A stretch of 63,497 nucleotides of DNA, counting the filler, from Kipferlia bialata (taxonomy: Eukaryota), in assembly GCA_003568945.1 (NCBI GenBank). It is 4 parts of 4 records of this genome, joined end to end, with 100 filler letters (N's around TTAATTAATTAA, not from the genome) between each part and the next. Parts side by side here need not be neighbours in the genome. Positions count along the whole stretch, not along the records: positions 19,733 to 50,275 come from BDIP01000122.1; 3 more parts are not named here. One strand, given 5' to 3'. The position numbers were made by a program, and so were the translations under genes. The notes below the pieces were generated by a model. It was given only the letters and a program-made list of their open reading frames with translations, had not been told where the DNA came from and searched no databases. Shown one piece after another: positions 19,633-49,900 of the stretch (position 1 is its first letter; every line of letters begins with the position of its first letter).

Positions 19633-19732
19633 NNNNNNNNNNNNNNNNNNNNNNNNNNNNNNNNNNNNNNNNNNNNTTAATTAATTAANNNNNNNNNNNN
19701 NNNNNNNNNNNNNNNNNNNNNNNNNNNNNNNN
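19633..19732. other. Artificial contig join (N-gap with TTAATTAATTAA stop linker)
   Basis: 100-nt gap with the linker at 19677-19688. Confidence 0.95.
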
Positions 19733-20132
19733 GTAATTCACCGCGCCACCCCCCCCCCCCCCCCCCCCCCCGTACCCTCTCCCACCATCCCATGTGTATA
19801 TCTCTCTCTCTCATTGATGATACCACCCACATAGCTACTCACACCATATGTACCCACTGTTGTAACCCACAGTACACTGCAGTATCCCTTTTTACTCTTT
19901 CTCTCTCTCTATCACTCAGTGAGTGACTCACTCTTTCTCCCCTCCCCCCCCCTCTCTACCTGCAATTTAACAGGCAGCACGGCACTCTCTCTTCCTGTCA
20001 CCAACCTACTCTCTCTCTCCCAGTGCACTGCATATCGTATTGTAATTACTGTCAGACCCAACGGTGCGCTCCAGGAGCCCCTTCTAAAGTTACTCTCTCT
20101 CTCTTTCCCTCTCTCCATCTCCTTATACATAG

Positions 20133-22216
20133 GCCAAATAGCGCACTGCAGGAGCCCCTCCTAGAGCTGTTGTCCTTCAGTGCACTGGAGTATGACTTCA
20201 TATCAACACTCCTAAGCAAGAGACAGGTATCACTCGCAAAGATCATTGGAGACACATAGTATTAGAGAGTTATACACTATTCTCCTCTCTTCTCTCTTCT
20301 GACCTACTTAACATGAGTTATTTACTATTCCCTTCTCTCTTCTTCTACCCCACCTCTCATTCTCAGAAGTAGATAGTTGTTGCACCATTTTAGAATTCAA
20401 CAATTTCCCCTAAATATTTCAATTATTCCTTCCCTCTCACCCTCAGGAGTATGTTGCCCTTGCAGCTGCATCCGACAGTGTCACAGAGGTAGGAGCATCA
20501 TTATAACATCATGACATTATTGCTACATATTTAAGTGTCTGTTGAGGAGAGAAACTGTGAGTTTCTATTCTAACAATACCGTATGTAACCCCCAAGGAGC
20601 CCACCTGGGCAGAGGTCGAGCAGCAGAACGCCATGGCACAGTTCAGCAACGCTAAGGGTACGTTGAATTTAACGTCATACGGAGTACGGTGTACAGTGTA
20701 CGGTCTCTTTTACCCCCCAGTACAGAGTCAGGCACCCAGACAGGGCAAGGCCAGGGCACTTGACCTGAGAGAGAGTGTGCCTGTGCAGAGGCCACAGGGG
20801 GGAGGGGGGATAGACACATTCAGAATTGCAGGTATGTTATAGGTTTATATGTACACTTCTTTACTGTGTTATCCTCTCTCTCTATTCCTCTCTATCTCTG
20901 CAGCTACCTCATTCAGGTGCTGCCACTATGTGCTGCTGACATTGTGCTGCAAATACACCCCCATCTCTCTCTCCCCCACTACACCCTTATTTCAGGTGCT
21001 GCCACTGCTGACATTGTGCTGCCAGAGGGCACGGAGCAGACATCGGTATGTTGACTATTATAGTGTTATTGTAACACTGTTATTGACAGACTGAGGAGAA
21101 CATTCATTCATTCCCAGACCGAGCAGTGTGACTCCATCTATGACATTATATTCCTGTATACACATATATAGTAGTGCTCCATATTATACTCATGGTTGTA
21201 TTACTAACATGTCCAGACCGAGCAGTACGACTCCATCTATGTCCCAGCCAGCACAGAGCCACACAGCATGGAGAGGTACTATTATAGATTGTATCATATA
21301 TCTAAGCATTAATACATATATCACATACATATATATGGTATAGCCAAGGAGAAGCTACTATTATATATGTAGTATATGCGTATATGTCCCAGCCAGCACA
21401 TAGCCACACATCATGTAGAGGTGTGGTATACTGTATTACATGGAGCAATGTGTATATAATACTATCTTTACTACCTACTAGGACCCCTCTCTCCTGCTCG
21501 CCCCCTGGACCCACGGGGCATTCCTAATGCGTATATATATCAATGTATATATGTATTCACATATGTACTCACTAATAGAACCCCCCTCTCCTGCTTCCCT
21601 TCTTGGACCCACGGGGCATTCCTAATATATATATTCCAATACATATGTTATTATTCCTATTCCTGTCTAAGAAAATATACTAAGTATAAGGACACCACTG
21701 TCCTGCTTTCCATTGTGGACCCACGGGGCATTCCCCCCAGAGGTCAAGAGCCTGAACCCCATGCAGAGCCAGGTATAGAACAGTATACTACTGATATTTA
21801 CTATATATTATATTGTGACTTTCGGGTTCATATGGGCTAGAATTCATGTTGTAACAGTATTGAATTTAGATTGCGCAATTCCTTAACCCCAGGTCTACAA
21901 CGATGTGTTCAACAACAGTGGCAACGTCATTGTGGCAGCACCAACAGGTATATAGAAATATACATACACATATATATATTATATCACCCACATATATGAA
22001 AGATGTGTATTGTCTTTGTGTTATATATGTATTATAGTAGATCTACCTATCTTCACAGTGGCAACGCCATTGTGGCAGCACCAACAGGTATGTGCATAAG
22101 TGTAAATACGGTGTTTATACTAGTGGCCTAGTATAGTATTCTATATATATATATCTGCATTGACGTGCCTTTCTTCATAGTGGCAATGTCATTGTGGCAG
22201 TACTAACAGGTAAGAC

Positions 22217-22266
<50 letters not shown>

Positions 22267-23070
22267 TCCCCCCTCCGCACCCACTGGTAAGACAAGGTAC
22301 CCTATCACTCGGTCGATGGTTTCACTACAGTACTCCTTCTCCCCCTCTACACCCTTATTGCAGGTGCCGGTAAGACCATGGTTGCCCTTCTTGCCATCCA
22401 TATGCTATCTTTCTCTCTCTCTCTCTCTACACCCTTATTTCAGGTGCCGGTAAGACCATGGTTGCCCTTTTGGCCATTCTGAGGGAGATCAGGGAGTCGA
22501 TAGGCATAGAGGAGGAGGGAGAGGGAGAGGGAGAGAGAGAGGGAGAGGCCATGGCCAGGGATGCCTTTGGCAACATGCTCATAGTGTGAGTGGATGTTGT
22601 ATATGTACTGTTAGTTAGTATTAATATACCCTATGTATTCTGTGTTACTAACATTCAGCTACATCTCCCCCATGAAGGCCCTGGCCCCATTGGTACTATC
22701 TCTCTCTCTGTATATGTATACTCCACCTTCCATATATATATATATACCGTCTAACACTTAGGTATATCACCCCCATGAAGGCCCTGGCCACTGAGATCAC
22801 TGGCAAGTTCCAGAAATCACTGGGGTATCTATCAGGTATATTAATGTATATGTATACATATGGATGATGAGAGAGAGATATATATTAACTGAGATCACTG
22901 GCAAGTTCCAGAAGTCTCTGGGATACTTATCAGGTACTACTACTTTTTAGATATATATATATAGTATAGAAATATATATATATTGAGGGAGAGAGAGATC
23001 ACTGGCAAGTTCCAGAAGTCACTCGGATACCTGTCAGGTACTATTTTATATATATTAAGTATATATATTA

Positions 23071-23106
<36 letters not shown>

Positions 23107-23885
23107 AGAGGGTGATACTGAGATCACTGGCAAGTTCCAGAAGTCACTGGGGTACTTATCAGGTATATTGATATGTAGATATATCAGACATTAGTCTGTA
23201 ACAATATATGAATATCGAGAGAGAGAGAGATATACTGAGATCACTGGCAAGTTCCAGAAGTCACTCGGATACCTGTCAGGTACTATTATATATATATTAA
23301 GTATATATATTAGTACATATATATATATATGTTGAGAGGGGGAGAGTACTGAGATCACTGGCAAGTTCCAGAAGTCCCTGGGATACTTATCAGGTACTTG
23401 TACTTTTCAATTGATAGTATATGGATCTCTGTTTCACTCTATTTGGTTCTGTGATGGAGGTGACAGGTGACACACAGCTATATATATATATATATGTCTC
23501 ATGTATATGCATATTGAATGCATATACCACTACTATGGAATATCTTACTATCAGGCTCTGTGATGGAGGTGACAGGGGACACACAGCTGTCAGGCATGGA
23601 ACTGCAGAAGGTACCCATGATTTCTCTCTCTCACTCACTCTCTCTCTCACACGCACACACTATCGCTCTCCCTTTTGCCCCCGGTGCTCCCATATTCTCT
23701 CTCTCTCCCTATACATCCCAAATTCCAGGTTAGTACCATAATGTACTCTCCCTCTCTTTCTCTCTCTCTCCCCCTCTACACCCTTAATTCCAGGTCAATG
23801 TCATGGTGTGCACCCCTGAGAAGTGGGACGTGCTGGGCAGGAGGGCAGGTATATATATATATGTATATATACATATTCTAGTGAC

Positions 23886-23921
<36 letters not shown>

Positions 23922-24200
23922 GGATGTGCTGGGCAGGAGGGCAGGTATATATATAGACATATTTGTATATATATATATACATATACTATTGTTATAGAGA
24001 GAGAGAGAGAGACAGAGAGAGAGGAGTGGGATGAGCTGGGCAGGAGGGCAGGTATTATACAGAAGTATACTCAAGTAGGAGGGTAGGGGTATATATATTC
24101 AGTGCATTCAGCCTTTGTATCTTTTTGATAGACCCCTGACCCCCAGTTGGAGAGGACAGCCCCCTCAACATACATACACACACTGTCTCTTTTCTATATG

Positions 24201-24234
<34 letters not shown>

Positions 24235-27200
24235 TCAGTATAGTATCTAATGTATATACCTCTCACCCCAGTTGGAGAGGACAGCCCCCTCAACAGACAG
24301 ACCCTGCTCATCCTGGATGAGGTAGATAACAATTTATATATATTCTAGTATATAGTGATATTGAAATATCTAGTATACATATGGAGTGATAGACAGACCG
24401 TACTCATCCTGGATGAGGTTAGTTATCTATGTTTATACCCCTTACCCTAGGTCCACCTCCTTGGCACTGGCAGGGGTGCAGTCATTGAGACACTGGTGAT
24501 GAGGACACTGCAGCACACAGAGATCACCCAGAAGCCTATCAGAAGTGAGTAGACAGTATATCTCTCTCTCTCTACACCCTTTATTCACACTCAGTCATGG
24601 CCCTCTCTGCCACTGTGCCCAATGTCTCTCTCTCTCTCTCCCCCTCTCTCTCTCCCCCTACACCCTTTATTCACACTTAGTCATGGCCCTCTCTGCCACT
24701 GTGCCCAATGTCAACGACGTGGCAGAGTTCCTCAGGATTCCAGGTTGGTTATACAAATACTCTTTACACTTCATTTCTGTGGTTACTGTTTAGAATATTT
24801 GATACATTAATGGAGTCAGAGGATCTCCACATAAGTATTATTTCTATGGTTTATCTACATTATTCTTCTAACCCTCAGAGACCTCTAGACACGTGTTTGG
24901 CCCCGAGTGGAGACCCATCCCACTGGCCCAGAGGTTCATAGGTATGTATATGTATTTTTGTATGTAATGATGGTGATAGTAGTATGTGATGGATATTTTA
25001 GTTAATCGAATGGACTGGTACATACTAGGCCTAGTAGTATTGTGTGTGTTTCTAAATGGTATTTGGTTTCTAGGACCCCAAGGCCACTCCCCATCAATAT
25101 AGAAGTCTATCTAATGACGTAGTATATCAATCTTTGTATCAATATGTATACATGTATGTATCTAATCCTCCAGGCGTGAAGGACCCCAAGGCCACCAACC
25201 TATTCGCACTATGAATCAGAATGCATGTGATATATATATATCACATATAGTTATGAGGGATACCATATGTATATATATAACCCCAGGTGTCAAGGACCCC
25301 AAGGCCACCAACCGCAAGATATATATATGTATTATTACTATTTATACTATTGTATAATTCATTTAGTGTAATGTATGTATCTAACCCCAGGTGTCAAGGA
25401 CCCCAAGGCCACCAACCGCAAGAGGGAGAGAGAGATGGCGAGGGAGAGAGACCCTATGGCTGAGGAGTCTGCGGCAGACAGAAAGAGAAAGGAGAGACAG
25501 CAGGTATATATGTATATATACTCTGTATATACCCATGTAGTATTTCCATTATATGACTATCAGAGAGAAAGGAGAGGCAGCAGGTATATTGTATATATTG
25601 AATATGAATACATCTTTGGGCGAGGACCAATGCATAAAGACACATGAATATATATGCAATATAATGATGTATATATGTGTGTATAAACATAATATCTCAC
25701 CCCCAGCGCATGGGCGAGGATGAGGTTATGGACTCCATTGTGCTGGACATTGTGAGGTATGGGTATATATATTCTCTATGTATAATAGTATCAGGTGTCC
25801 CTATAGATATCCATCTAGATACTACCGCAGTATATACTACTCTGACCCCCCCAGCGAGGAGGTCATGAAGGGCAGGCAGTGCCTATATACTATACTATAT
25901 ATGTAGTCACTGTGTATATATCTACGCACACGCACACCTCTCTTTCTCATATATACACCTCTAACCCCCAGGGAGGAGGTCATGAAGGGCAGGCAGTACA
26001 AATAGTGTATAAATACTAAGTGTCTATATTGATAGACATGTATAGCCATGTATTCTGAGTGTAAATGTCTCTAACCCCTAGGGAGGAAGTCATGAAGGGC
26101 AGGCAGTGCCTGGTGTTCCTACACAGCAGGGCAGGGTGAGTATATGTACGCCATATAGTACCTTTAGGAGTTAATACATTGCTATATCGATGTGTGATGA
26201 ACCCACGCGCCCGCAAAGATTTTATTTCTTTACATATTACTTTTCTATTTATTATAAATATTTATGTATGGTTACAGGGTATGTATGTGTCTTCCGCTCT
26301 CTCTATATATATACTGTATACTATAACACTAACAGCACCACGCCAGTAACTGATGGGCCATGATGACCCATACTCTCTCTCTCTCTCTCTCTCTCTGTTA
26401 GTCTTGTATACTATAAGTATACTAACATCAGCACTACCAACATGTGCCAGTACCTGATGGGTCAGGACATACCAGGCATAGACAACATAGACCCACACCT
26501 CAAACAGCAGAGATCAAGGTATACAAGTATATGATTTACTAATATTACACATACATATATATACACATACATATACAAATATATATATGTATATATACAT
26601 ATATATACATATATACATACATATACATGTATATGTATATATATTTTAGTAGTGCAGACACTGACCCCCAGGATAGCTGCCAAGTGCCGCAACCCAGACC
26701 TCGGACCACTCCTGCAGGTACTCCTCTCTCTCTCTCTCATGGACCCATATGGGTTTGCATACATATTTATACATTTTGTGTACATTGGTCTTTCAACAAT
26801 TGAACGTGAAATGTATACAAATATTCTTCATTTATCCTCTAGGAGGGCTTTGGGTGTCACAATGCACATCATACGTTGTATGTGATATATATGTACAGAT
26901 ATGTATACATATATATTAACCCCTAGGAGGGCTTTGGGTTCCACAATGCTGGTCTGGCCAGGAGTGACAGACTCAACGTGGAGAAGCTATTTAGGTGTGT
27001 CTATAACCCATATTATATAGAATGAGTGGGAATCCTTTCAGGTATTTTGTGGTACATATAGTGGTGCGTCTAGTGTATATATGATAGTGTGATAGTGGCT
27101 ACATGTCTGGCCAGGAGTGACAGGCTCAACGTGGAGAAGCTGTTCAGGTATAGAAGAGAAGGACCGATCATGGCATTACATATTTGTCCATAATGTGGTG

Positions 27201-27372
27201 CTTGAGAGGCTCATACGAATAACAGTTCATATATATATTGACGTGTGCATTCAAGTCGTTCAATTGGGGTGTTCTGGGTGTATTATCCTGCAACACACAC
27301 TCTCTCTATCTATATGTCCTCTTAACCATCAGAGATGGCGCCCTGCGTGTCCTGTCGTGCACTGCCACCCTA

Positions 27373-27403
<31 letters not shown>

Positions 27404-30400
27404 TCTAACCATCAGAGATGGCGTGCTGCGTGTCCTGTCGTGCACTGCCACACTCTCTCTCTCTCTCTCTATATATATACTTACCCCTAGAGATGGTGCC
27501 CTGCGTGTCCTGTCCTGCACTGCCACCCTGGCCTGGGGTGTCAACCTACCCGCACACACGGTTATTATTAGGGTAAGGAGGATATGTATATATGTAGCAT
27601 ACTACAGTACTCTAGTATGTATACAGAATACTAGTATAGTTGATATTATTTATATACCAGTAGGGTAATGTAATTCTTCTTTCTCTCTCTACAGCCTTGA
27701 ACTGGTAGGGTGCTACTTTCTCTCTCTCTCCCCTTTCTACACCCTTTTACCCTCAGGGCACCGATGTCTACTCCTCTCTCTCTCTCTCTCTCTCTCTACA
27801 CCCTTTTACCCTCAGGGCACCGATGTCTACTCCTCCGAGAAGGGAGGCATGATCGACCTGAACATCCTGGATGTCCAGCAGGTAATATTGATATTTAGTA
27901 CTCATACTAATAGTATTTCATGAAATAGTCATGTAATATATATACAATCGACGTGCAGCAGGTAATATACTTAATGTAGATGTATAGACACCGATATATA
28001 TATATATATACATATGCTATACGTATGTATATACAATATATGGAAGAGGCATGATCGACCTGAACATCCTCGACGTGCAGCAGGTATGAACACGCGGCAC
28101 TCACTATGTCTGAAAGAAGTATTTTCTGTTATCAGTAATTGCATGGTTTTCTTGTTGTGAGCCGGAACTAATGTCTTTTTACTAACCCCCAGATCTTTGG
28201 CCGTGCCGGTAGACCCCAGTATACACACATATATATATACATATATACTATATTCAGTGTATATGAGTATATATTTCTAACTCCCAGATCTTTGGCCGTG
28301 CCGGCAGACCCCAGTTCCAGGCAGAGGGATACGGAGTGCTCATCACAAAGCAGGTACAATAATTGTATAATATGTATATAATATACACATACACATATAT
28401 GGCTATTGATAAACACATATGTGTGTTACCGTTTTGCATGTCTGGTATATATATGTCCTGGGTCTAGGCAGGGAGATGGGGAGTGCTCATCACGAAGCAG
28501 GTGCATACACATAATGCTTCTCTCTCTCTCTCTCTCTTAGTGTGTATGTGTATGGAAGTATTGTTCTGTTTATGTATCGTTTCTCACCCCCCAGGCCAAG
28601 CTCCCCCAGTACATGAGACAGCTGCTGAACCAGGCCCCGCTAGAGAGTGTACGTGTATCAGAGTAGACTTTAGCTATGCGTGTTTAGTTACCTTTACCAT
28701 TTATCTGTTTACCCCTATTCCAACATTTCCCACCTGACAGACATCCTCAACGCATATACATATTCACATATCAATCATTTATACATGTATATAGTTACCT
28801 TAGTAGTATTCATGTAATCTCTACTACATATCCACTATATTCTATACTATAAACACTGACCTATAGGTCATGATCTCCCACCTGACAGACATCCTCAACG
28901 CAGACACTCTTTCATATTTATATCATGAATATCTAATGAATCATTGATATGAGTATATATATAATGTATGCTTACCTTCAGGTCATGATCTCCCACCTGA
29001 CAGACATCCTCAACGCAGAGATATATACATACTGAGATTGTACTAGGGAACATCAGGTGTGTTTCTATAATGATAAATATTTATGATCACGTGTACACTC
29101 TTGATTACATGTTTCTCCATTTATATTTATGTCTTTCCTCTCGCCATATTCCATATGTAAGAACTGGAAAACTTAATAGTACCCGACTCTCTCTCTTCCT
29201 CTCACCCCCAGCACTCTGGGAGAGGCCGTAATTTAGATAATGATAAATATTTATAAAACTCTATAGTACCTGACTCTCTTTCTCTCTCTCTCTCCTATCT
29301 CCTATCGATCTCACCCTAGTACTCTGAGAGAGGCCGTGACCTACATGAGCAGCTCATTCCTGGATGTCAGGTACTATGTCTATCTCTCTCTCTATGTATT
29401 TATATATTTATGTATTTATATTAGTATATTTATATATCTATATTAATATATACATATGAGTTGCTCATTCCTGGACGTCATGACATCTATTAATTCCCCT
29501 CTCATTCTGCTAGTATCTGTCTTTCTCTATATATACACCTCTTACCCCCCAGGATGAAGTACAACCCCCTCTTCTATGGGTCATCATGTACTTCTCTCCC
29601 TCTCGTTATAATGCCAATATGTATATATATATATATATACACCTCTTACCCCCCAGGATGAAGTACAACCCCCTCTTCTATGACTCATCATGTATTTCTC
29701 TCTGTCTCTGTCTCTCTCTCTCTCTCTCTCTCCCGTATATCTTATCCTCAGGATGAAGTACAACCCCCTCTTCTATGGGTCATCCTGCACAGGGGTGGCC
29801 AGGCAGTCATCCATGGACAGGTATGAGATATATTATTATGAGATACTTGTCTAATTTAATATAGTAGTATGTACTAGTTTCATTCTCTTTCTTAGTATAT
29901 AAGCAGGGGTGGCCAGGCAGTCATCAATGGACAGGTATACTGCATATATATATATATGCATACACGTAAAGTTGAATGGGAGTATATATACTCCTATTGC
30001 AAGTGTATGTGTTTGTTGAGGTGGCCAGACAGTCGTCGATGAACAGTGTAGCTGTATACCGATATTGTATACAGTTTCTATTCTTTTCTTTGTAGCTTTC
30101 TCCCCCCATATATCCAGGCTCCCATTATGTCAAGTACATACACACACACATACACATATCTATATATACATACTCTTCGGATACGTCTCACTCTCAGACT
30201 GCGTGAAGTGTGCCGGGCTGCCATTGAGAACCTATATGATATTGTATACCTTTTGTATTATTAGATATTATCTCTTGTGTGGATATACCTTCCTTACACT
30301 TAGACTGCGTGAGGTGTGCCGGGCTGCCATTGAGAACCTGGTCAGACTCAGGATAGCATCCTTCAACCAGAAGGCAGACAGTACGTGGATAGTATATAGT

Positions 30401-35382: not shown

Positions 35383-35413
<31 letters not shown>

Positions 35414-37301
35414 TGTAGTATATATATATATGTGTGTGGAGAGATGTGTTTAGTCTATTATTGATGTCGTTGTATATATGTCAAAGAGGTCAACCTCACA
35501 GGTGGGGTTATGAGATTGTATATATTGTATACATAGGTCATATTGACATTGTGTATAGTAAATGAGAGTTGTTGTGCTAGTTTGTGCCATTTTCACCCTA
35601 ACCCCAGGCCTCATTGTGCCTGAGGAGTCTGGGGAGTACACCAATGTCCCCCTGTTCAGCCCTCTGTCCAAGAGGGCTATGCACTGGCCAGAGGTATATA
35701 TAGGAGTATGAAGTGATCCTATATATATATATATATAAATATTAATATAATGAATACTATACTATGTATGTCCCTCTGTTCAGTCCTCTGTCAAAGAGGG
35801 CTATGCACTGGCCTGAGGTATTGAAATATATTGTGCATTTGTATATCGTTCATTAGTCTAATCGTCCATCCTCACCCCCAGGCCGAGTCTCCGTTTGGAT
35901 TTGACTTCAATCACTATATATACGTCACACATATATATAGGTATACTGTAACATATATGAGTGTATATACATGCTAAAACTGTACTTACCCCCAGGCCGA
36001 GTCTCTGTTTGGGTTTGACTACTTCAACCCCCTCCAGACATCATACTTCCACAGGTTCGTAAGTATTTAGTGTATATAGTATGTATATAGGTCATATATA
36101 CTATGTGGATATGATACCGACACTGATACTGACTACTTCAACCCCCTCCAGACGTCATACTTCCACAGGTAAGGCCATACAGTATGTGTATATATACCAT
36201 GTATGTAGTATATATGTATTTGCACTCTTCAGTGTCAGCCCCCTCCAGACATCATACTTCCACAGGTACGGACATATAATAGAGTATATAGTATATAGTG
36301 CACTGATAGTACATATACCATGTACACAATATATGTTCTTCCACAGGTTCAACTTAGGACTACCTGTTATACATATTCATTCACCATGGCTGCTAACACT
36401 CCGAGGGCAACGTTATCATTGCCTTCAGTATTGCATTACACTATATATACATCGACAATTGATGTATTATCAAAATATGTATTGTATGAATTGTCATACT
36501 CACACTAGGTGCTACCACTCCGAGGGCAATGTCATCATTGGCGCACCCACAGGATCTGGAAAGGTTGGTAGACATATAACTTCTATTGCGCATGAGTACC
36601 ATATGATATACATATTCTGGTAATATGTTTATGGTTGACGTCTATGGTTATGTATCTATGGTGCACAATGTATTGGCACTGTTCTCGCTGATATCCCAGA
36701 CCATTGCTGCCGAGCTGTGTCTCCTCCAGATACCCATCTCTCTCTCTCTCTCTATCTCTCTCTCCATATATANNNNNNNNNNNNNNNNNNNNNNNNNNNN
36801 NNNNNNNNNNNNNNNNNNNNNNATATATATATATACTGTTCTTGCTGATCCCAGACCATTGCTGCCGAGCTATGTCTGCTCCAGATGCTCAGAGATCACC
36901 CACAGAGGAAGGTATGACATACAGTGTGGAGTAATACACCTAGGTGAAGAGTGGTGTATTATACATATTGCACTTTCTGCTAACTCTTAGGCCGTCTACA
37001 TTGCCCCCCTCAAGACCCTTGTCACAGTATATCTCTAGTATTTTTAGCATGTCTCTATCCTCGAGTACATATTAAGCATTACCTTCTAGGCCGTCTACAT
37101 TGCCCCCCTCAAGACCCTTCTTGTCAAGTGTATAGTGTATATATGTGTGTGTGATTGTGTTAACGTTCCTGATTGTGCTTTCTCCAAACTCTTAGGCCGT
37201 CTACATTGCCCCCCTCAAGACCCTTGTGAGAGAGAGGGTCAACGACTGGCAGAAGTTCAGAGCGGTGGGGGCTAGCCTAGTTGAGATTACAGGTGAGAGA
37301 A

Positions 37302-37334
<33 letters not shown>

Positions 37335-40226
37335 AGACCCTTATTGTCAGGTGATGTCCTCCCTGACTCCGATGCCCTTAGGACTACACTTCTCTCTCAC
37401 TCTCTCTCTCTAGACCCTTAATATCAGGTGATGTCCTCCCAGACTCCGATGCTCTGAGGACTGCATCTATCCTAGTGACCACACCCGAGAAGTTCGATGC
37501 TGTCTCAAGGTATATATATATATATATATCATATACCATACAAGTATACTCATGTATTGTTCTTACAGTATGAGTGTATATATACATATATAGTCATTGT
37601 ATCCATGCTAGTGACAACACCCGAGAAGTTCGATGCTGTATCCAGGTATAACACAAAGTATATAGTCATCTTCTGTAAAAAGTTCCTATATATATAGTCA
37701 TTGTATCCTCCTAGTCACCACCACCGAGAAGCTGTGTCCAGGTACTTACTTATCCCGTGCGTCTACCACCTCTTTCTATTTTTCGAAAACTACTCCTATC
37801 TCTGTTGACTATTCTCTACCCAGCGGCAGTGTCATACCCAGGAATCCACATTATATTGAGTCCAAGTGTTTATTACTGTTTCAAATTACTGTATATACTA
37901 TAACCCATAAATACCATAATATATATGGCTTACTATCTCTACCCCCAGGCACTGGCAGACCAAGCGCTTTGTGCAGCTGGTGGGACTGGTCATCATCGAT
38001 GAGGTGTGTAGTATACAGTGTACATTGTATTAGTATATGCAGTGACTATAGTATATATATAGTGACGATAGTGTACACAGTACTATATGGTTTGTGCAGC
38101 TGGTGGGACTGGTCATCATCGATGAGGTACACAGTATGTACTCTGTGAATACATTTAGTAATATACATTGAACGCTCTAGTAGTATACTAGGTGGTTTGT
38201 GCATGCCTAAGTACTATATATGCACAGTAGTGGATGTATTTGTGCCCCCTACTGGGCACAGGTACTAGCAATGATTTGTATTCAGAATATGGTGTATAGT
38301 ACTAGAATAGTATATAATGAATGTAGACTCTCTTCTCACCCCCAGTGCCACCTCCTTGGTACAGACAGAGGCCCAGTGCTGATATGTATATTGATATGGA
38401 TATAGTCAGATATACATATATATGTAGTATGTACTATTTACTATTTGTATGTATATGTACATCTTACACTCAGTGCCACCTCCTTGGCACAGACAGAGGC
38501 CCAGTGCTGGAGAGCATAGTCTCAAGACTGAGGTACATACATTGTATACTGTATATACATGCATTCCTCTTGCTTATGAAATATATGCTATGCATAGTGT
38601 GGAGATTTCATATATATAGATATAGAGTCCATACTCAGGCATCCATCCAACCACTGAAACTATACATATAGTACAATATGATGTGACCAACCTTACCCCC
38701 AGGTTCATCAGTGACATGTTTAGGTCCATACCCATATGAATATAGATATGTTTTGTATAATGAATATAAATGTGAATATAGATGTATTTTGTGTGTAGTA
38801 AGTCTCTGTATGTCACTATTATAACTCACCCCCAGGTTCATCAGTGACCGCTATGCAGAGGCGCACAAGATCAGATTCCTAGGTATGCATACAGTGTGTG
38901 ATGTGTGGAACAGTAGAAGAGTTTTGGGTTGTTATAGTATATTTGGGTCTATTCTATGAACAGTATTCATGGATATAGAGAGGCACACAAGATCAGATTC
39001 CTAGGTGAGAAGAGAAGGAAAGAGAACCCCACACATTGAAACACACTCTCTCCTGTACTCTCTCACATGTTTGTGTCGTCTAAGCGTCTAAGCGTCTGAC
39101 CGTAGGACTAACCACCTCTGTGGCCAACCCCCAAGATATGGCAGACTGGCTAGGGGTAGCCGACACCCATACATTCAACTTCCCCCCTAGTGCCAGGCCA
39201 GTGTCCCTGGAGACACACATTCAGGTATGTCCTAATANNNNNNNNNNNNNNNNNNNNNNNNNNNNNNNNNNNNNNNNNNNNNNNNNNNNNNNNNNNNNNN
39301 NNNNNNNNNNNNNNNNNNNNNNNNNNNNNNNNNNNNNNNNNNNNNNNNNNNNNNNNNNNNNNNNNNNNNNNNNNNNNNNNNNNNNNNNNNNNNNNNNNNN
39401 NNNNNNNNNNNNNNNNNNNNNNNNNNNNNNNNNNNNNNNNNNNNNNNNNNNNNNNNNNNNNNNNNNNNNNNNNNNNNNNNNNNNNNNNNNNNNNNNNNNN
39501 NNNNNNNNNNNNNNNNNNNNNNNNNNNNNNNNNNNNNNNNNNNNNNNNNNNNNNNNNNNNNNNNNNNNNNNNNNNNNNNNNNNNNNNNNNNNNNNNNNNN
39601 NNNNNNNNNNNNNNNNNNNNNNNNNNNNNNNNNNNNNNNNNNNNNNNNNNNNNNNNNNNNNNNNNNNNNNNNNNNNNNNNNNNNNNNNNNNNNNNNNNNN
39701 NNNNNNNNNNNNNNNNNNNNNNNNNNNNNNNNNNNNNNNNNNNNNNNNNCCATCAAGCAGCACAGCCCCAGCAGCCCAGTGATTGTGTTTGTGTCATCAA
39801 GGTATCATATATATATATATATATATGTAATACATTATATTCATATATATCGTTATTGTTATCAAGCAGCACAGCCCCAGCAGCCCAGTCATAGTGTTTG
39901 TATCATCAAGGTACATGATATATATCTATGTATTACAAGGTATCCATATATATAGCTATACTGCCATCAAGCAGCACAGCCCCAGCAGTCCAGTCATTGT
40001 GTTTGTGTCGTCTAGGTACACTATATATATCATATATATATATGTAATACATGGTATATATATATACTTGTTTGTTATAATGTCATCAAGCAGCACAGCC
40101 CCAGCAGCCTAATGATTGTATTCGTATCCAGTAGGTATCATATATATATATGTTATATGGTATCCATTTGTATAGTCGTTATACTGTTACCAAGCAGTCC
40201 AGTGATTGTGTTCGTATCCAGTAGGT

Positions 40227-40260
<34 letters not shown>

Positions 40261-43200
40261 ATACATGGTATCCATTTGTACAGTCGTTATACTGTTATCG
40301 AACAGCACAGCCCCAGCAGTCCAGTCATAGTGTTTGTATCCAGTAGGTAATGTATATATATGTATATATTTGTGTATTACATGGTATCCATATATATAGC
40401 TATACTGCCATCAAGCAGCACAGCCCCAGCAGCCCAGTCATTGTGTTTGTGTCATCTAGGTATCATACATATATATCATATATATATATGATAATAGACA
40501 TTTATATATATATACTCTGTAAGCAGCACAGCCCCAGCAGCCCAGTGATTGTGTTTGTGTCATCAAGGTAGAATATCTTGTGTGTGTACATATCAGTATT
40601 ATATGAATGTGTTACAGATGGTAGACTCTTACCTCTAGGCGTCAGACCAGGCTCACTGCCCAGGCTCTGATTGCATTCTCGTCCATTGATGACAGTGCCC
40701 AGGGGCTAGGTATGCATTATTATATATATATATAGTATAAGTAGTACACAAGGATATAGTACTCCTTGCATTCTCATCAATCGACGACAGTGCTCAGGGG
40801 CTAGGTATATATATTCATACAAATATATGTGGAATAGTGTATACCGTATACATTTGTACTGTACTCATTGCATTCTCGTGCATCGACGACAGTGCCCAGG
40901 GGCTAGGTATATATATACATACATATATATGTGGTAGATATACTGTATACTTTGTACTGTACTCATTGCATTCTCATCCATCGACGACAGTGCCCAGGGG
41001 CTAGGTATGATCATATACATACATATATATGTGGTAGATATACTATATACATTTGTACTGTACTCGTTGCATTCTCGTCCATCGACGACAGTGCTCAGGG
41101 GCTAGGTATAACTATGGTATATGTACTCAATACAATAGTATTCCGATTGACATAATGGCACGGTTGAATATTGACTTTCAAACGAGAAGCGTCCTATTTG
41201 CTCACCTCCAGGCTTCGATGTCATTGCCAAGCTGCCCAGAGACGACCTACAGGTAACGATGGATTTGTCGTGTATATAGTATAGTATCTATAGTCATAAT
41301 GGACCCTGGTGCCAAGCTATATCATATACAATACATATTCATACATACATACTAATATATACCTATTTGTGACCTATACTCACTCAGATGGAGTCCGACT
41401 CCATGCTGGACCCCGATGCCAAGAGGTGTCTGCAGTACGGTATCGGTCTGCATCATGCAGGTGAGGAGTGTATATATTCATATATATATATCCATATACA
41501 TATATATCCATATATATATACACACATACATATATATACATATATCTATGTAGCAGTATATAGATATGTATTAGTAAACATTGCATACATATATCCAGGC
41601 ATGACCACTGGTGACAGGTCCCTTGTGGAGTATATATATGGAATATAGTTACTGTATATAAATANNNNNNNNNNNNNNNNNNNNNNNNNNNNNNNNNNNN
41701 NNNNNNNNNNNNNNNNNNNNNNNNNNNNNNNNNNNNNNCTTTGTTATATTCTTATATCCAGGCATGACCACCGGTGACAGGTCCCTTGTGGAGAAGCTCT
41801 TCCTCAGCCAGGTAACTCTCTCTCTCTCTCACTCTCTCTCACTCTCTCTTTGAGAAGCTATTCCTCTGCCAGGTTCTCTCCCCCCCCGTTTTCTTCCTTG
41901 TCATTATGTCATTCCCACCTGCACCTTTTCTCTTGCTCTGTCCTCTCATGATTCCTCCCTTCTCAATACCATATATGTGACACAATGTAGCACATCAGGT
42001 TTGTTAATGCCATCTCCACCCCTCCTCTTCCTCCTCTCTCTCTCTCTCTTCTAACTCTAGCGCATCAAGCTAGTCATTGCCACCTCCACCCTGGCCTGGG
42101 GTGTCAACATGCCCTCATACTGCGTCATTGTTAAGGTATGCATAAGTATATACATGTACTACATATATATATAGATGTAGGAGACCATTGTAAAGGTATA
42201 CATGGTAATACTCATTTCGTGTGTATAGCTATACTTTTCATATGTACTTTTCTATGACTACTATTCCCTCATACTGGTAGAGATAAGTATTCAATGCACA
42301 GGTAAAGAAGTGACATTTCAGTCTCATACTGGAATGCTCATATCTTTATGTTACATACTTCACACTAACACCAGGGCTGCCAGTACTTCGATGGAGCCAC
42401 CAAGCGCTACACCAACTACTCTGTCACAGACATCATGCAGATGATCGGAAGAGCCGGTAGGCCTCAATTCTGTCAGGTATTAATGGAAGAATCGTAGTTC
42501 AACCATCTCAGAAATTTCAAGAGTCTTAGTATTCCAGTGACACTATAATACTAATAATAGTAATTTAGTGTTATACATTTTACCTCATATCCAGGAGCGC
42601 CGTGAGCGTCTGATTCAGAGACTGGCCATGCAGAGGGGAGTCAGTGATGTCAACAAGTGGCTGCAGAGGTATTATTATCAATTACTGTATGTAATACCAT
42701 ATATATATTGTATACTATATATATATATATATTGTATATATTGTAAATATATATATATATATATATTGTATACTATTTGTACTGAGTGCTCACATTAGCA
42801 TCGACGTGGGAGAGCTACTCGCTGCCCACCCCGACACTTACGTATATGGTTATGTATACATTCACTTGCATGCTTTATGTTTGTGTCTAATCCACCAGCA
42901 TTGATGTGGAAGAGCTCCTTGCTGCCCACCCCGAGCCCGAGTCTGTGGCCGTTGTCCTGTGTCACAACCCCAGCAAGCCATTCTTCAGAAGGTAATTGGA
43001 GTTGGGGTTCATTTCCCTATGTATCTGCAGATCGCATTACACTAACCCTAGATTCCTCTATGACCCTTTCCCGGTTGAGTCTGCCATGAGTGGCAAGCTG
43101 GAGGACACACTGGTGGCAGAGATTGCATCAGGGCTGATAGGTATGCATATTGTGAGTATATATAGCACACGGGACTGATAGGTTGGTAGTTGAAAGTGTA

Positions 43201-44974
43201 ATACAATTACCCAATCTACACAGTCACTCTTCCTCCACACCCTTATATCAGCCTCTGTCGATGACCTGAGGGACTGGCTCCACTACACATTCTACTACAG
43301 GTATGAGGATATATGGACTTAGTGCGGCTGTCCTACACCCTTAGTGCCAGTGCTTCTATTGCCTTCACAAGCGTTGATACTCTCTGATATATGGTCGTGT
43401 CTTTCTGACTCCCTAGGCGTGTCCCCACCAACCCTGGCTACTACTCGCTCATTCCCGAGGACATTGGTACGTAATTGACGAGTCTTGACTTATCAGGACA
43501 ACTGTTGACTTCCTCTGACTTCCTAGGATATGATTTGTCCGAGGGTTATGGCATTGACGGCAAGAGAGACATTATGAGAGAGGCTGGGGACGCCCATGCT
43601 ATCATGAGGTACTCATTGTCTCTCTCCCCCCCTCTCCCTCTCACTCTACACCCTTAATACCAGAGCCAATGAGGCCATTGACATTCTCTCTCTCTCTCTT
43701 TCTCTCTCTCCCCCTCTACACCCTTAATACCAGGGCCAATGAGGCCATTGACATTCTGACCGAGGCCAGGTGCATTGACGTCATCAACAACACCGAGTTC
43801 AGGGCAACCTCGCTAGGTGTGTAAGTTATTCAGTACATTGTATGCTTATATAATACATATATACGTATATGTATACAATATATATATTCATTGACGTTAT
43901 CAACAACGTAGAGTTCAGGGCCACATCTCTAGGTATATCGAATACAATGTATATGTGCTTAATGGTAGACATATACTTCACTTGAATTATGTGCCCAGGC
44001 TGCCTCTTGCAAAATCTGAATGTATCGGTTAATCCTTGTATATAACTGACTCTAGGTCACCTCGCAAGCCTGTTCTACCTCAACCACACCAGTGCCGTCA
44101 TGCTGCACGAGTGCCTGTTCAAGAGGTAACGCTATATAGATATACACTTCATTATTAGTACTATAATTATTCATAAAGTGTATATATGTATATGTATCGA
44201 GAGGTGTCATTGTATTTGAGATATATATGTATACCAGTGCCGTCATGCTGCACGAGTGCCTATTCAAGAGGTAACACTGTATGTATGTATATATCTATAT
44301 ATATAGAGAGAGAGAGAGTAAGAGGGGGGGTCATTGTATATATACACCTTGTCTGTATATACCAGTGCCGTCATGCTGCACGAGTGCCTGTTCAAGAGGT
44401 ATGTATATACAATAATATATATATGTATGTATAGAGAGCGAGAGAGAGAGAGAGAGAGAGAGACGTGTCATTGTAGATGTGTACATGTATATATATATAC
44501 CAGTGCCGTCATGCTGCACGAGTGTCTGTTCAAGAGGAATAGTATACTTGTAAATTCGTATATGGTTGTGTTTCCATGTGTGAATATATGGATAATCTAT
44601 GGATTATAGACAGATGTCTCATCCCAGCCACCCCTACCGCTACCCCCTATGTCTGCCACCAGAAAGCGTTCAATATATAACTATTTGTTGCTAGATTGAC
44701 ATGTTCTTACCCCCAGCCACCCCAACCGCTACCCCCCCCCCCATGTCTGCTGACTGTTACCATGTCCCCACCAATATATATATATATACTAATGTAATAT
44801 AATAATAGTATAGTAATAATAATATATATATATATGTATATCCTTACCCCCAGCCATCCCAACCGCTACCCCCCCATGTCTGCTGACTCTGACTCTGACT
44901 ATGTCCCCACTAACTGGGTCACTGCATTGATGGAGGCAATGGCAGCATGTGCAGAGTTCGAGCAGGTTAGTCAC

Positions 44975-45013
<39 letters not shown>

Positions 45014-46903
45014 TTGTACTGATATGTATTACTTCTATGGGTCACTGCCTTGATGGAGGCCATGGCTGCATGTGCTGAGTTTGAACAGGTTGGACACACA
45101 CACTCTCTCTCACTATATATATGTGTGGATATGTATTACTCCTATGGGTCACTGCCCTGATGGAGGCAATGGCAGCATGCGCAGAGTTTGAGCAAGTGAG
45201 ACTATATGTATTTACATATATGTATATATACGTTTGTGCCCACCAACTGGGTCCCTGTACTCATGGTGGCAGCATGGGCTGAGTTCGAGCAGGTACCACT
45301 CTCTCTATATATAAATACATATTTGTGAGTGATATATGTGAGTTCGAGCAGGTTAGTATCTGTCTCTATCAGTGTATGTAGGGTCATATGTATTTCTTCC
45401 ATTCTAACATTCAGGTCCCTGTGAGGCACAATGAGGATCTCTCTCTCTCTCAACAAGCGCATATATATGCATATATGTATATCTAGTACTCACCCCCCAG
45501 GTCCCTGTGAGGCACAATGAGGATATACAAATATACCCTCAACATATTCAGTATTAAGAGTACTATACGTTATGTGTATCTGTGTATACTAACTCCTCAG
45601 GTCCCTGTGAGACACAATGAGGACAACGACATGGAGCACATGGTGGCACAGGTATGGGTATAGATATATGTATAACTAGTGTATATATACATAGTGTTTT
45701 CACGTAGTATAGGGTAGGGCAACGACATGGAGCACATGGTGGCACAGGTAGATATGTAATACATATAGAATATGCAAATATACTCTTAGATATCGACATT
45801 ATTATATGTATCTAGTATCTCTAGATATGTCCTCACCCCCTCAGGAGCTGAGGCAGACCAGAAGGGCCCCCGATGGCACTGATGTGTTTGAGGGGGGGCT
45901 CAGGATGGTACCCCCAGGGTGCCTGCCACCAGGTATTACTACTACTCTCTCTCTCTCTCTCCCTCTGTCTCTCTCTTTAGATAGATATACTACTATGTAT
46001 GTACGATCATTTATGATTACGCATATATATGTGAGTGATGGTACCACCAGGCTACCTGCCACCAGGTATATATGTGAATACATTAATGTGTGTACTTGTT
46101 ATATATTAGTACAAAAGTTGGTACCTTCTCATTTCAGCTACCCTTCCTGCAAGACCCACCTTCTCCTCCAGACCCAGCTCTCTCTCTCTCTCTCTCTCTC
46201 CCTCTCTCTCTAACTCCTTAGGCTCCCCCTCCTACAAGACACACATCATTCTTCAGACCCAGCTATGGCACATATATATACACACAATATATTATAAATA
46301 TTATATAATATTATATAATATACTGTTGTATACCTCATATATATAATATAATATTTAATATTATACTGTTGTATACCTCACTACAGGATCCCCCTCCTAC
46401 AAGACACACATCCTTCTCCAGACCCAGCTGTCCAGGGCACACACACACACATATATATACACCATATAATTATACTACTTTCCTCCTAATCTAAGGTTCA
46501 CCGTCTTATAAGACCCACATCCTTCTTCAGACCCAGCTGTCCAGGGCACTCCCAGGGGGGGCACCAACCATGCCATGCGCCGATTTCTGGTGAGTAGTTC
46601 ATCATAGTGTATAGAGTATAGATAGTATGGATGCGGTACTCCCAGGGGGGGCACCAACCATGCCATGCGCTGATTTCTGGTAAGACTGTGAAGGACTATT
46701 CTTCTTCTTCTCTGGCTTGATCTGGCCTCTGTCATGGACCAGGCGTCAATCTCTCTTTCTCTCTCTCTCTCTCTCGATATACCCTAATATCAGGCTTGAC
46801 CTTGCCTCTGTCATGGACCAGGCCGTGAGACTGAGTGCAGCTGCCATCGAGTGTGCAGCGGGGTGCAGACTCAGTGACGACAGGATTATAGGTATTATAC
46901 ATG

Positions 46904-46936
<33 letters not shown>

Positions 46937-49900
46937 TATCAATGCCATTGAGTGTGCAGCAGGGTGCAGACTGTCAGACGATAGGATTATAGGTATATTA
47001 TTAGTATATGTAGAGAGAGAGAGAGTATCAATGCCATTGAGTGTGCGTCAGGGTGCAGACTCAGTGATGATAGCATAATAGGTACAGCACTACACTGCTA
47101 AGAGGGAGACAAGTATTATCCCCTTCAGAGCAACCTGCTTTCGGATTCCGTGTCATAGAATACCTCTGGTTATTCTATTCACATCCTCACCCCCAGGGGT
47201 CAGGTCCATGATAGATGCCTGCCGTCTCTCAGCTGGTCTCGTGCAGGTATGCAGCCAATAGCAATCAATGGATTGTCATACGTAGTGCAGTGAAATTATC
47301 AACCAATCAATCTATGAACCAATCTGACCCCCAGGGCCTGTGGCCTGACAGTGACAGCAGACTGTGCCTCCAGTCCATCAGGTTAGTATCATACCCTCAA
47401 CAATATTGGAAACGCTTACCCACCTGTATGGCGTATACTCTTCCAGAGATAGTTTCACTGCATAGATGTGTATGTTGTATCTCACCCTCCAGGGAGAGAC
47501 TGACCCTACTGTATCTTAGAGTAATACTACAGTATTTAGTAATAGTAGTAGTTCTGCTCACCCTCCAGGGAGAGGCTGACCCCCAAGTCCCACCTGGCTG
47601 TGCTGGACAGGCTGTCACAGGTACACCTCTCTACAGTTATATATATATATATAAATATATATTGATATATACATATACTATTGTATATTTTCTACGTGTC
47701 CCACCTCGCAGTGCTGGACAGACTGTCCCAGGTACAGTGCAATCATCATATATATTAATCTACTGGTACCACCTGGCTGTGCTGGACAGGCTGTCCCAGG
47801 GGTATTCCCGCATAACCCTTCATATTCACTTTGTGGAAATATACATACATTCTCTTTAGTAAAGATATGAGTATATGTGTATGTGTATGTGTGTATGAGA
47901 CCCTCACTCCAGGCCGGTCTGCCCAGCCTGGCACACATGGCACACCTCGGAGTGGGTACGTGTTTACAGTGATTGTGTATATATATATATACTATACTAT
48001 TTATTATTAGTAATTTGCTATCTACCTCGGAGTGGGTTCGTCTATACACTATGTAGTTGTATCTACCCCCTAGGCACCCCCTCAGCAGAAGAGGGCCCTT
48101 GCCCATACCTATATATACTATACCCCATATATACATACTATTCATATATATACTATACCTCTCCAACATATTATTATATATATATAGCTATATTGATTAT
48201 CATTAGTATTAGTGAAGTCTAACCCCTGGGCACCCCAGCAGAAGAGGGCCATTTCTCATATCTCATATATATATATTAGGTAATAGTATTCAGGGTCTTT
48301 AACCCCCAGACACCCCAGCAGTGAAACACACACATATATATCACTCTAATACTATATAGTCTCTTATCCACTAGGCAACACCCAGCAGAAGAAGGCCCTT
48401 TACCATTCATCCTTTCATATATATTGTCAGATCAATTATATAGCTCTAATCTAGGCAACACCCAGCAGAGAGAGGCCCTTAACCATGATATATCTTCTAT
48501 ATATATATATATATGGAAAGGCTAACCCCCTAGGCAACACCCAGCAGAAGAAGGCCCTGAGACAGGTGCTGCAGAGGGTGATGGGAGGGGATATCTCAGA
48601 CATTATTAGGGACATTGCAAGGTAATATTACGTAGTATATTCCCTCTAAGTGGTATAACTTGTATATAGATACATTAACAATTAGATGTATATATAAATC
48701 TACACATATATATATATAGGTGCTGCAGAGGGTGATGGGAGGAGATGTGTCCGACATCATCAGGGACATTGCAAGGTGTGTATATAAGACATTTATGGAC
48801 ATATATATATGAGTTCATATAGTATAATGATTGTACAATAGCATGAATGATAGTGTATGATTGGGACGTGTCAGACATCATCAGGGACATTGCCAGGTGT
48901 GTCTAGGTGTAAGAGATTATACAATGGTAGATTGATTATTGATCTCACCTTAGGGTCCCACTTGTGAGTGTGCGTGTTGAGAAGGGCGAGAACCCCCACG
49001 AGAGGGAGAGAGAGACAGACCAGGCCAAGAAGGAGACCCAGGGTGCCACGACCGTTGGTCCTACGGTCTATGACATCACAGAGGGAGAGAGAGGGGGAGA
49101 GAGAGAGAGAGAGGGCCAGGCCTTCCTCTGCGTCATGCCAACTACAGAGCTCAGAGTTACACTCAGGCACATCGGGACTATCCCAGGTACCTTGTGACAA
49201 GTAAAAATACGCAACCGTGTAAACAATTCGTACAATTACACTAACCCCAGGCATGTTCCGCTCAGAGATCTTCCCCAAGCAGAAGCCCCACTCTGTGTAT
49301 GTGGCTGTGTGTGTGCCACCACCCCATGTCACAGACGATGTCATTGCACAGTGGGAGAGAGAGGGATACGACTACTCAGAGGCCACAAAGGTATGATATA
49401 TGTGAATACACTATATATACTATATATGTATATATACCTGTGTCACAGACGAGGTGATAGCACAGTGGGAGAGGGATGGGTTTGACTACACAGAGGCCAC
49501 AAAGGTAACTACAATACTATATGTTCACCATTACTATCTATGATTCTCTCTTACACTTTTGACTGGCCTTGTTGTGCACAAGCGTCTCTTTCTCCATACT
49601 GTGACATCTCTCCCTGTTAGTATGAATTCATATCCACTCTTCTAACACTAGGACTGGCCTGTTGTTGTGCACAAGCGTGTGGCATTTGACAGGAGCACTA
49701 GATTTGCATTCCAGATCCAGTCTCGCAGAAGGTACTCTCACGCTCTCTCTCTCTTCTTATATGTACATATGTTTTCATTTACCCTGTCACAGTATCTATG
49801 TGTGTGTGGATATGAGTGTTCATATGCTTACTTACACTATGGTTCCTGTGCATATACATCTTGTCTGACACCTTGGCACCGACCAGTGCTATCTCTCTCT

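What the first reader, a model, noticed from the sequence alone, without database searches (positions are those of the whole stretch)
20057..49890. Gene-wide system of polarised half-exon stacks in the introns of the ASCC3 helicase
Seen: most exons are flanked by 1-8 partial copies of themselves. Upstream copies are branch point + AG + exon 5' part and then break off (e.g. 22363, 24594, 25173/25286, 27413, 29552/29656, 30721/30819, 36990/37090, 45414/45500, 46221/46386). Downstream copies are exon 3' part + GT (e.g. 22888-23393, 30436/30538, 32271/32394, 34707/34812, 44232/44360/44498). All are in direct orientation and I saw no complete duplicate exon. The exon-derived part is well preserved while the spacers are divergent TA-rich DNA. 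This inflates a roughly 2000-codon gene to 30 kb. Inference: repeated one-sided recombination or template switching (one end homologous inside the exon, the other in intronic microsatellite) installs a new exon end and pushes the old one into the intron, building an intronic archive of exon ends. I know of no described system with this form.
Basis: partly seen in the sequence, partly recalled or inferred. Interest (0 to 1): 0.92.

Follow-up and report, generated by a model that had tools for sequence, protein, structure and literature searches.

The report
Introns archive former alleles' exon halves
One helicase gene of a free-living protist carries over a hundred half-exon copies in its introns that differ from the working exons mostly at silent positions, so they are likely discarded exon ends of other alleles, which would be a record of sex-like genetic exchange and a testable mechanism for 'exon stuttering'.

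Summary
Observation confirmed. The gene is Kipferlia bialata ASCC3. Of 85 modelled exons, 59 have partial copies: 56 upstream 5' halves and 70 downstream 3' halves, none complete. In the 3 kb tested, read-derived DNA contigs run through 8 copies without a difference, and a spliced RNA contig skips the copies. The anatomy is already described as 'exon stuttering' in chicken dot chromosomes (PMC12954441), and the polarity follows from any tandem duplication across a splice site. New here: copies differ from the working exon at 27% of silent but 3.4% of replacement sites (dN/dS 0.11, 95% 0.08-0.15). Self-duplication followed by decay gives 0.42 in simulation. The few amino-acid changes look random, so the copies appear dead now but diverged mostly while functional. 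Best reading (0.55): out-of-register recombination between highly diverged alleles installs a new exon end and leaves the old one in the intron. No second allele or strain was available, so that step is inferred. The scan noted similar junction copies in a sea-urchin gene (e1-9861148); its one-sided-selection explanation fails here.

The parts
20133..50046 (+). ASCC3/Slh1-type helicase gene of Kipferlia bialata, 85 modelled exons (median 70 nt, 6,313 nt in all). The 5' start lies upstream of 20133 and is not modelled. The public protein KIPB_000961 (P0002, 1454 aa) covers only 29345 onward.
   Evidence: exons between 20133 and 22835 confirmed in part by a spliced contig
20066..49896 (+). 56 upstream 5'-half copies (mostly AG + exon start). 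Aligned starts: 20066 20933 21118 21482 21580 22364 22660 23448 24147 24595 25066 25176 25287 25856 25972 26843 27333 27416 27757 28193 28725 28867 29213 29553 29657 30198 30722 30822 31281 31690 32551 34409 35882 36391 36700 36991 37090 37351 38346 38703 41599 41993 42799 43665 44628 44717 45415 45501 46151 46224 46389 46715 48375 48455 49561 49842
21383..49504 (+). 70 downstream 3'-half copies (mostly exon end + GT). Aligned starts: 21383 22055 22179 22888 22995 23117 23234 23348 23915 24021 24391 25564 27105 28046 28463 29456 29904 30020 30435 30537 32267 32395 32813 33056 33308 33531 33869 34283 34703 34811 35362 35482 35768 36130 36235 37598 37709 38091 38979 39861 39964 40084 40190 40297 40408 40521 40766 40864 40962 41067 41852 43889 44233 44361 44499 45038 45145 45235 45340 45716 46037 46635 46943 47032 47698 47766 48024 48718 48863 49441
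22762..22835 (+). Working exon of the clearest stack; the RNA contig enters at its AG (skipping the copy at 22660) and leaves at its GT
   Evidence: tables 5, 7, 8
22888..23393 (+). Five downstream copies of that exon's 3' half: 23 silent and 0 replacement differences from the working exon; 5 haplotypes among 6 sequences
21482..21622 (+). Two consecutive upstream copies of exon 21691-21772, bridged by one DNA contig and skipped by the RNA contig
39750..40567 (+). Largest stack: 8 versions of one exon end, 7 haplotypes, 14 of 28 informative site pairs fail the four-gamete test. The first version is cut by the gap and may itself be a copy; left out of the main dN/dS estimate.
40766..41105 (+). 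Four downstream copies of exon 40639-40709: 15 silent and 1 replacement difference
48083..48896 (+). Two-sided stack around exon 48534-48621 (two kept and two weaker upstream copies, two downstream)
28982..29056 (+). 5' half, 11 nt, then 3' half, with a 5-nt overlap and an in-frame stop; no intact exon in the assembly. Likely a local assembly collapse between two TA-rich spacers; not tested against reads and left out of dN/dS.
39238..39749 (.). 512-N gap that hides part of the coding sequence

Best explanation
The introns of the Kipferlia bialata ASCC3 gene hold 126 half-exon copies that differ from the working exons mainly at silent sites, so they are likely former working exon ends of other alleles, left behind when recombination between diverged alleles likely began inside an exon and ended out of register in the intron. 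Steps: (1, inferred) alleles differ at about a quarter of silent sites and more in introns, so pairing is possible only in exons. (2, inferred) A break inside an exon is repaired from the other allele by one end only; synthesis runs through the donor's splice site into its intron and the end is rejoined to the old half, giving new end + donor intron + old end. (3, geometry) Only products whose joint lies in the intron keep a whole exon, which gives 5' halves upstream and 3' halves downstream. (4, inferred) Once a repeat exists, unequal exchange between one allele's working exon and another's stack adds units that inherit the junction. (5, shown in 3 kb) Splicing uses only the innermost whole exon. 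(6, supported) Displaced ends then decay slowly, about 0.035 substitutions per site so far.
For: Working exon versus copy: pS 0.269, pN 0.034, dN/dS 0.106 (117 copies, 57 exons; bootstrap over exons 0.078-0.148; one copy per exon-side 0.12-0.15). Simulated self-duplication with the same detection step gives 0.41-0.43; a simulated copy that is functional for 0.12-0.14 and then dead for 0.03-0.035 gives 0.10-0.12. Copy versus copy: pS 0.337, dN/dS 0.10 in 74 pairs; differences by codon position 56/44/272. 58 of 117 copies have no replacement change but 104 silent ones; GC3 is 0.716 in working exons and 0.721 in copies although the introns are 37% GC. The amino-acid changes look like random decay: 5 stops in 88 (4.2% expected), 33% conservative (31% expected), 1 of 42 shared within a stack. 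Intron flanks of the same units are far more diverged: only 2 of 73 spacer pairs reach 85%. Four-gamete failures occur in 4 of the 4 stacks with at least two informative sites. At least 17 nt of the exon is always uncopied (0 of 79 below 17, 24 expected if uniform), as a homology arm would need. The replacement-to-silent ratio is higher at the junction end than at the splice end (30:47 vs 25:99, P=0.005). Copy number rises weakly with exon conservation (rho 0.24, P=0.027, 83 exons). Precedent: in Schizophyllum commune, with parents 14% apart, crossovers fall preferentially in conserved exons (PMC4209137, passages). Fornicates lack Ku-type end joining and Rad51A and have two Dmc1 paralogs (PMC8516963, passages).
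Against: No second allele or strain was seen: the laid DNA and RNA runs are one sample and show one version of the stretch, and the metagenome scan found only 28-33% identical relatives. The implied silent diversity of 0.25-0.3 is higher than the 14% genome-wide distance in the one precedent I read. Why this gene is so loaded (74 repeat clusters in 29.9 kb against 1 in 32.7 kb of neighbours by the automatic screen) is not explained. Upstream ends and downstream starts are both near mid-exon but not coupled exon by exon (P=0.40), so a fixed break site is not shown. The 17-nt floor could instead reflect selection against near-complete splicing decoys. Outer copies are not significantly more decayed than inner ones (21/284 vs 14/336, P=0.11). 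Four-gamete failures can come from repeated mutation at this divergence.
Confidence: 0.55

Rival explanations
1. Units arise by self-templated tandem duplication, and the silent bias comes afterwards: ordinary allelic gene conversion keeps replacing the working exon, or copies rotate into use often enough that indirect selection purges their replacement changes. This also needs diverse alleles and genetic exchange, but the copies are not installed from another allele.
For: It gives the same low dN/dS in principle; mosaic haplotypes; shared junctions within stacks.
Against: Young self-copies should have near-identical spacers, but only 2 of 73 pairs reach 85%, and identity just after GT is 0.3-0.6; slippage in TA repeats could blur this. 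The working exon is not a mosaic of its copies: it has 1.0 private third-position letters per stack, like any copy (0.86).
Confidence: 0.2
2. The donors were not population alleles but a diverged second gene copy or hybrid partner genome (paralog, homeolog or introgressed lineage), now lost or not seen.
For: It explains high dS without extreme species diversity and fits a gene-specific load.
Against: No second Kipferlia-like protein above 55% identity in two searches (each scored only the top ~8000 candidates). Up to 7 haplotypes per stack and two sites with three states need more than two sources or much mosaicism.
Confidence: 0.1
3. The copies are used in protein, through rare alternative, trans- or non-canonical splicing of half-exons in some condition.
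For: dN/dS of 0.1 is the usual sign of coding function; decoy 3' splice sites score about as well as working ones (8.45 vs 9.09 bits, P=0.24).
Against: Spliced contigs join across the copies at 20933, 21118, 21383, 21482, 21580 and 22660. There is no GT at upstream break points (12 of 56, background 36%) and no AG at downstream ones (17 of 63, background 26%). 5 stops, 9 of 124 copies with indels, and random-looking amino-acid changes.
Confidence: 0.07
4. Plain exon stuttering: self-templated tandem duplication across splice sites followed by neutral decay, with selection only on the working exon.
For: Same anatomy and copy size as in birds (PMC12954441); it explains the polarity and shared junctions.
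Against: It predicts dN/dS 0.41-0.43 and 40-41% silent differences; observed are 0.106 and 70% (binomial P=2e-27 without correction for non-independence). It predicts copy-copy values higher still; observed 0.10. GC3 has not fallen.
Confidence: 0.04
5. Assembly artefact: alleles or strains assembled in tandem.
For: Silent-site differences are what alleles show; the draft has gaps, and 28982-29056 looks collapsed.
Against: Read-derived contigs of 869, 1245 and 463 laid letters cross exon-spacer-copy junctions with 0 differences at similar depth (394, 412, 378). Half-exons joined to spacer are not what tandem haplotypes give. The run may be the assembly's source, and only 8 of 126 copies were bridged.
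Confidence: 0.04

Closest known systems
Exon stuttering in chicken dot chromosomes (Hron et al. 2026, PMC12954441; abstract, passages, section 16 and second part of the Discussion read; supplements not seen)
   Same: Direct tandem copies of the lateral part of an exon with its splice donor or acceptor in the adjacent intron; exon part median 36 bp there, mean 32 (upstream) and 38 (downstream) here for the longest copy per exon-side; repeat-rich introns; strand invasion and gene conversion named there as one possible cause.
   Different: A fornicate protist, AT-rich introns instead of GC-rich dot chromosomes; 59 of 84 introns of one gene against 3.4% of dot-chromosome introns; copies show dN/dS 0.1 (the word 'synonymous' does not occur in that paper's main text); length polymorphism not testable here.
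Human hypervariable minisatellites (interallelic conversion; PMC2599865, passages read)
   Same: Tandem units of about 100 bp with variant repeats, thought to grow by non-reciprocal exchange between alleles through synthesis-dependent strand annealing.
   Different: Here each unit holds coding sequence and a splice site, so codon positions record its past function; the interallelic step is inferred, not observed.
Tandem exon duplication and mutually exclusive exons (PMC9013439, search listing and one passage)
   Same: Exon-derived sequence in neighbouring introns; low dN/dS would be expected there too.
   Different: Copies here are never whole, have one splice site only and are skipped in the RNA tested.
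One-sided invasion repair (term seen in search listing; mechanism recalled)
   Same: One break end copies from a homologous template and the other is joined without homology.
   Different: Known to me from gene-targeting experiments, not as a recurring natural process that rebuilds exon ends.
Silent-cassette archives for antigenic variation (trypanosome VSG, Borrelia vlsE, Neisseria pilS; recalled)
   Same: Partial, unexpressed coding copies with coding-like divergence near an expressed gene.
   Different: Housekeeping helicase; the working exon is not a mosaic of the copies.

Membership tests
Exon stuttering (PMC12954441) | [quoted passage not shown] | tested here: met
   126 copies in adjacent introns; non-adjacent and reverse-strand controls at chance level
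Exon stuttering (PMC12954441) | Copied part starts at the exon border and includes the splice site | tested here: met
   52 of 56 and 69 of 70 reach the border; AG kept in 46, GT in 62
Exon stuttering (PMC12954441) | Repetitive introns | tested here: met
   TATA/ATAT words 80.6 per kb against 15.4, 18.8 and 44.5 in the other three contigs; spacers homologous within stacks
Exon stuttering (PMC12954441) | Extensive intron length variation within the species | not testable with these tools
   Only one sample holds the stretch
Exon stuttering (PMC12954441) | GC-rich dot-chromosome context (an association there, not part of the strict criterion) | tested here: not met
   Introns 36.8% GC, contig 41.3% against 49-53% for neighbours
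Tandem exon duplication / mutually exclusive exons | Complete exon copy with both splice sites | tested here: not met
   0 of 79 exon-sides
Tandem exon duplication / mutually exclusive exons | Each copy found in mature RNA | tested here: not met
Silent-cassette gene-conversion archives (recalled) | Expressed copy is a mosaic of the silent copies | tested here: not met
   Working exon has 1.0 private third-position letters per stack in 29 stacks, copies 0.86
Interallelic minisatellite mutation | New units shown to come from the other allele | not testable with these tools
   Inferred from dN/dS and spacer divergence only
ASCC3/Slh1 helicases | Closer to ASCC3/Slh1 than to Brr2 | tested here: met
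   Solved structures: ASCC3 796 bits, Slh1 721, human Brr2 675, yeast Brr2 483; most named hits among the best 120 are ASCC3; no tree was built
ASCC3/Slh1 helicases | Two DEAD/Helicase_C/Sec63 cassettes | tested here: met
   The modelled N-terminal part aligns to ASCC3 relatives at 36-42%; P0002 holds Sec63, DEAD, Helicase_C and wHTH

The most novel reading that the evidence does not exclude
A single homozygous genome stores dozens of formerly functional alleles of each exon end in its introns: a self-writing allele archive, built by exon-anchored one-sided recombination in a hyperdiverse, sexually recombining fornicate, and tolerated by a spliceosome that ignores near-perfect decoy splice sites at normal intron distance.
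Probability: 0.45. Interest if true: 0.88.

Novelty: new variant of a known kind. Interest (0 to 1): 0.72.

Why it matters
Exon stuttering was described as a new instability with no known mechanism and was looked for in vertebrates (PMC12954441). This case puts it in a distant protist and adds a measurement, codon-position divergence of the copies, that separates self-copying from exchange between alleles and can be run on the chicken data at once. If the allelic reading holds, it is sequence evidence for genetic exchange and very high diversity in a group where neither sex nor parasex has been directly observed (PMC8516963), read from one genome. It also sets a splicing problem: decoy 3' sites that score like the real ones lie as close as 50-79 nt to the upstream donor in 6 of 34 introns, within the normal intron size, yet the RNA contig skips the ones tested. 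In practice such stacks break gene annotation: the public model lacks the first third of the protein.

Tried and rejected
No whole genome is held, so no genome-wide count was possible. Run search: no listed holder is on record as RNA; X2 is a guess, but its contigs have GT..AG joints. Reads were laid on 20030-23040 only; holes at 22209-22276 and about 22401-22561 prove nothing, and the absence of RNA cover over the downstream copies at 22055-22209 and 22888-23037 is not used as evidence. Metagenome scan for another Kipferlia strain: 5 loci, 28-33% identical, not used. Paralog search: nothing above 55%. A shared fixed break site per exon: not supported beyond both ends lying mid-exon (P=0.40). 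Splice signals at the break points: none above background. The automatic repeat screen of neighbouring contigs found 1 cluster and missed the stack near 61400 that I saw by eye, so its counts are lower bounds on both sides. Literature: 10 searches. 'exon stuttering' returned only the avian work; 'Kipferlia bialata' + 'intron' gave 29 papers, 20 listed, none on this by title or abstract start; in the genome paper (PMC5874029, first part and passages) 'duplicat' occurs 0 times. The VNTR and hyperdiversity searches gave nothing useful. Supplements of PMC12954441 and PMC5874029 were not seen and could bear on novelty. Scan look-ups by place and by sequence were empty.
Full report
Identity. A 44-residue exon translation found one protein, Kipferlia bialata KIPB_000961, on a 30,543-bp contig. 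That is the length of the window segment 19733-50275 between two N-linkers. The protein is closest to ASCC3 and Slh1 among solved structures (796 and 721 bits, against 675 for human Brr2). K. bialata has 124,912 annotated introns (PMC5874029, passages). The public protein starts at 29345. I modelled 28 further exons upstream by hand; they read in frame apart from one and align to ASCC3 relatives at 36-42%. The model has 85 exons and 6,313 nt.

Observation. Aligning each exon to its two flanking introns gave 133 hits in 169 pairs; controls gave 45 of 7056 (non-adjacent introns) and 3 of 169 (reverse strand). I kept 126: 56 upstream and 70 downstream, on 59 exons. 52 upstream copies start at the 5' end and 69 downstream copies reach the 3' end. 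Copies cover about half an exon (ends at 0.44 and 0.48 of exon length), the period is 107 nt, and copies on one side mostly share a junction (38 of 53 pairs). At least 17 nt is always left uncopied. Neighbouring genes have the same kind of copy but rarely: 1 cluster in 32.7 kb against 74 in 29.9 kb by an automatic screen, plus one stack and one short copy seen by eye.

Is it real? In 20030-23040, three DNA contigs built from reads cross 8 copies with no difference, at depths 394, 412 and 378. The run may be the assembly's own source, but the contigs do not depend on the assembler's path. An 871-nt spliced contig uses the innermost AG and first GT of the exons it covers. A 5,099-nt contig enters exon 22762 past the decoy at 22660, and its loose end matches the exon at 23555, not the copy at 23448 (compared). 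No second allele appeared in DNA or RNA. The rest of the gene was not tested. One spot (28982-29056) lacks an intact exon and is probably collapsed.

The new result. Copies differ from the working exon at 26.9% of silent and 3.4% of replacement sites: dN/dS 0.106, 95% 0.078-0.148 over 57 exons, leaving out the two doubtful exons (9 copies). With the gap-cut exon included, differences fall 56/44/272 on the three codon positions, and copy-copy pairs give 0.10. If a copy is made from its own exon and then decays, half the path is unconstrained; my simulation, with the same detection step and a transition bias above the observed one, gives 0.41-0.43. The amino-acid changes that exist look random, include 5 stops in 88, and are almost never shared. 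GC3 is unchanged although the introns are AT-rich. So the copies have been dead for about 0.035 substitutions per site, while about 0.27-0.30 of their silent divergence built up under protein selection. The adjoining intron parts are homologous but much more diverged, as allelic introns would be.

Mechanism. With one working exon per chromosome, several versions can diverge under selection at the same time only on different chromosomes or gene copies (inference). No paralog was found, so alleles are the likelier source. In a hypervariable fungus, crossovers concentrate in conserved exons (PMC4209137, passages). Fornicates rely on homologous repair with Dmc1 and lack Ku-type end joining (PMC8516963, passages). 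I therefore propose a break inside an exon, one-ended copying from a diverged allele through its splice site, and rejoining in the intron, followed by unequal exchange between alleles' stacks. The uncopied floor, mosaic haplotypes, the junction-end gradient and a weak link to exon conservation fit. Against: no allele was observed, the implied diversity is extreme, outer copies are not significantly older, and the gene-specific load is unexplained. The main rival (self-duplication with later allelic conversion or indirect selection) also needs exchange between diverse alleles.

Known systems. The anatomy meets the strict definition of exon stuttering in PMC12954441; its population feature could not be tested, and its GC-rich context is not met. 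That paper offers only speculation on mechanism and its main text does not use the word 'synonymous'. A search for the term found no other work. An earlier scan note on a sea-urchin gene (e1-9861148) reports similar junction copies with 43 of 107 silent differences, which fits one-sided selection; here 70% are silent and that model is rejected.

Verdict. A real feature and a new variant of a recently described kind. The form is known; the codon signature, the density and the lineage are new as far as my ten searches reach. Interest 0.72.

Noticed in passing
window 5606-5632 (- strand): One downstream 3'-half copy with GT of the exon end 5698-5724 in another gene; two differences, both silent.
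   Followed up: yes
window 61485-61511 and 61630-61656: Two downstream copies with GT of the exon end 61400-61426; one silent and one E-to-D difference.
   Followed up: yes
window 51567-51586: Short possible copy, ending in GT, of the exon end near 51445-51462.
   Followed up: partly
window 28982-29056: 5' half and 3' half of one exon sit 11 nt apart with a 5-nt overlap and no whole exon; likely assembly collapse, but if real it would need unusual splicing.
   Followed up: partly
window 19633-19732, 50276-50375, 60973-61072: N-runs with a 12-base linker join four contigs; the window is not one continuous locus. Contig ends fall at poly-C/G or CT runs.
   Followed up: yes
window 20964-20995, 22338-22363, 22412-22443, 23761-23793, 43701-43733: A shared intron 3' motif (CT run, then a conserved 20-base word before AG) recurs in unrelated introns and in contigs from elsewhere in the genome; possibly a mobile or converted intron end.
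   Followed up: no
window 16224-16340 and 19404-19523: Two exons 71% alike in neighbouring genes, apparently paralogs.
   Followed up: no
window 42595-42668 and 31532-31602: Exons with almost no match in 20 ASCC3 relatives (conservation 0.01): lineage-specific insertions, without copies.
   Followed up: partly
window 62423-62878: ORF with a P-loop that looks like a guanylate kinase (label recalled, not tested).
   Followed up: no
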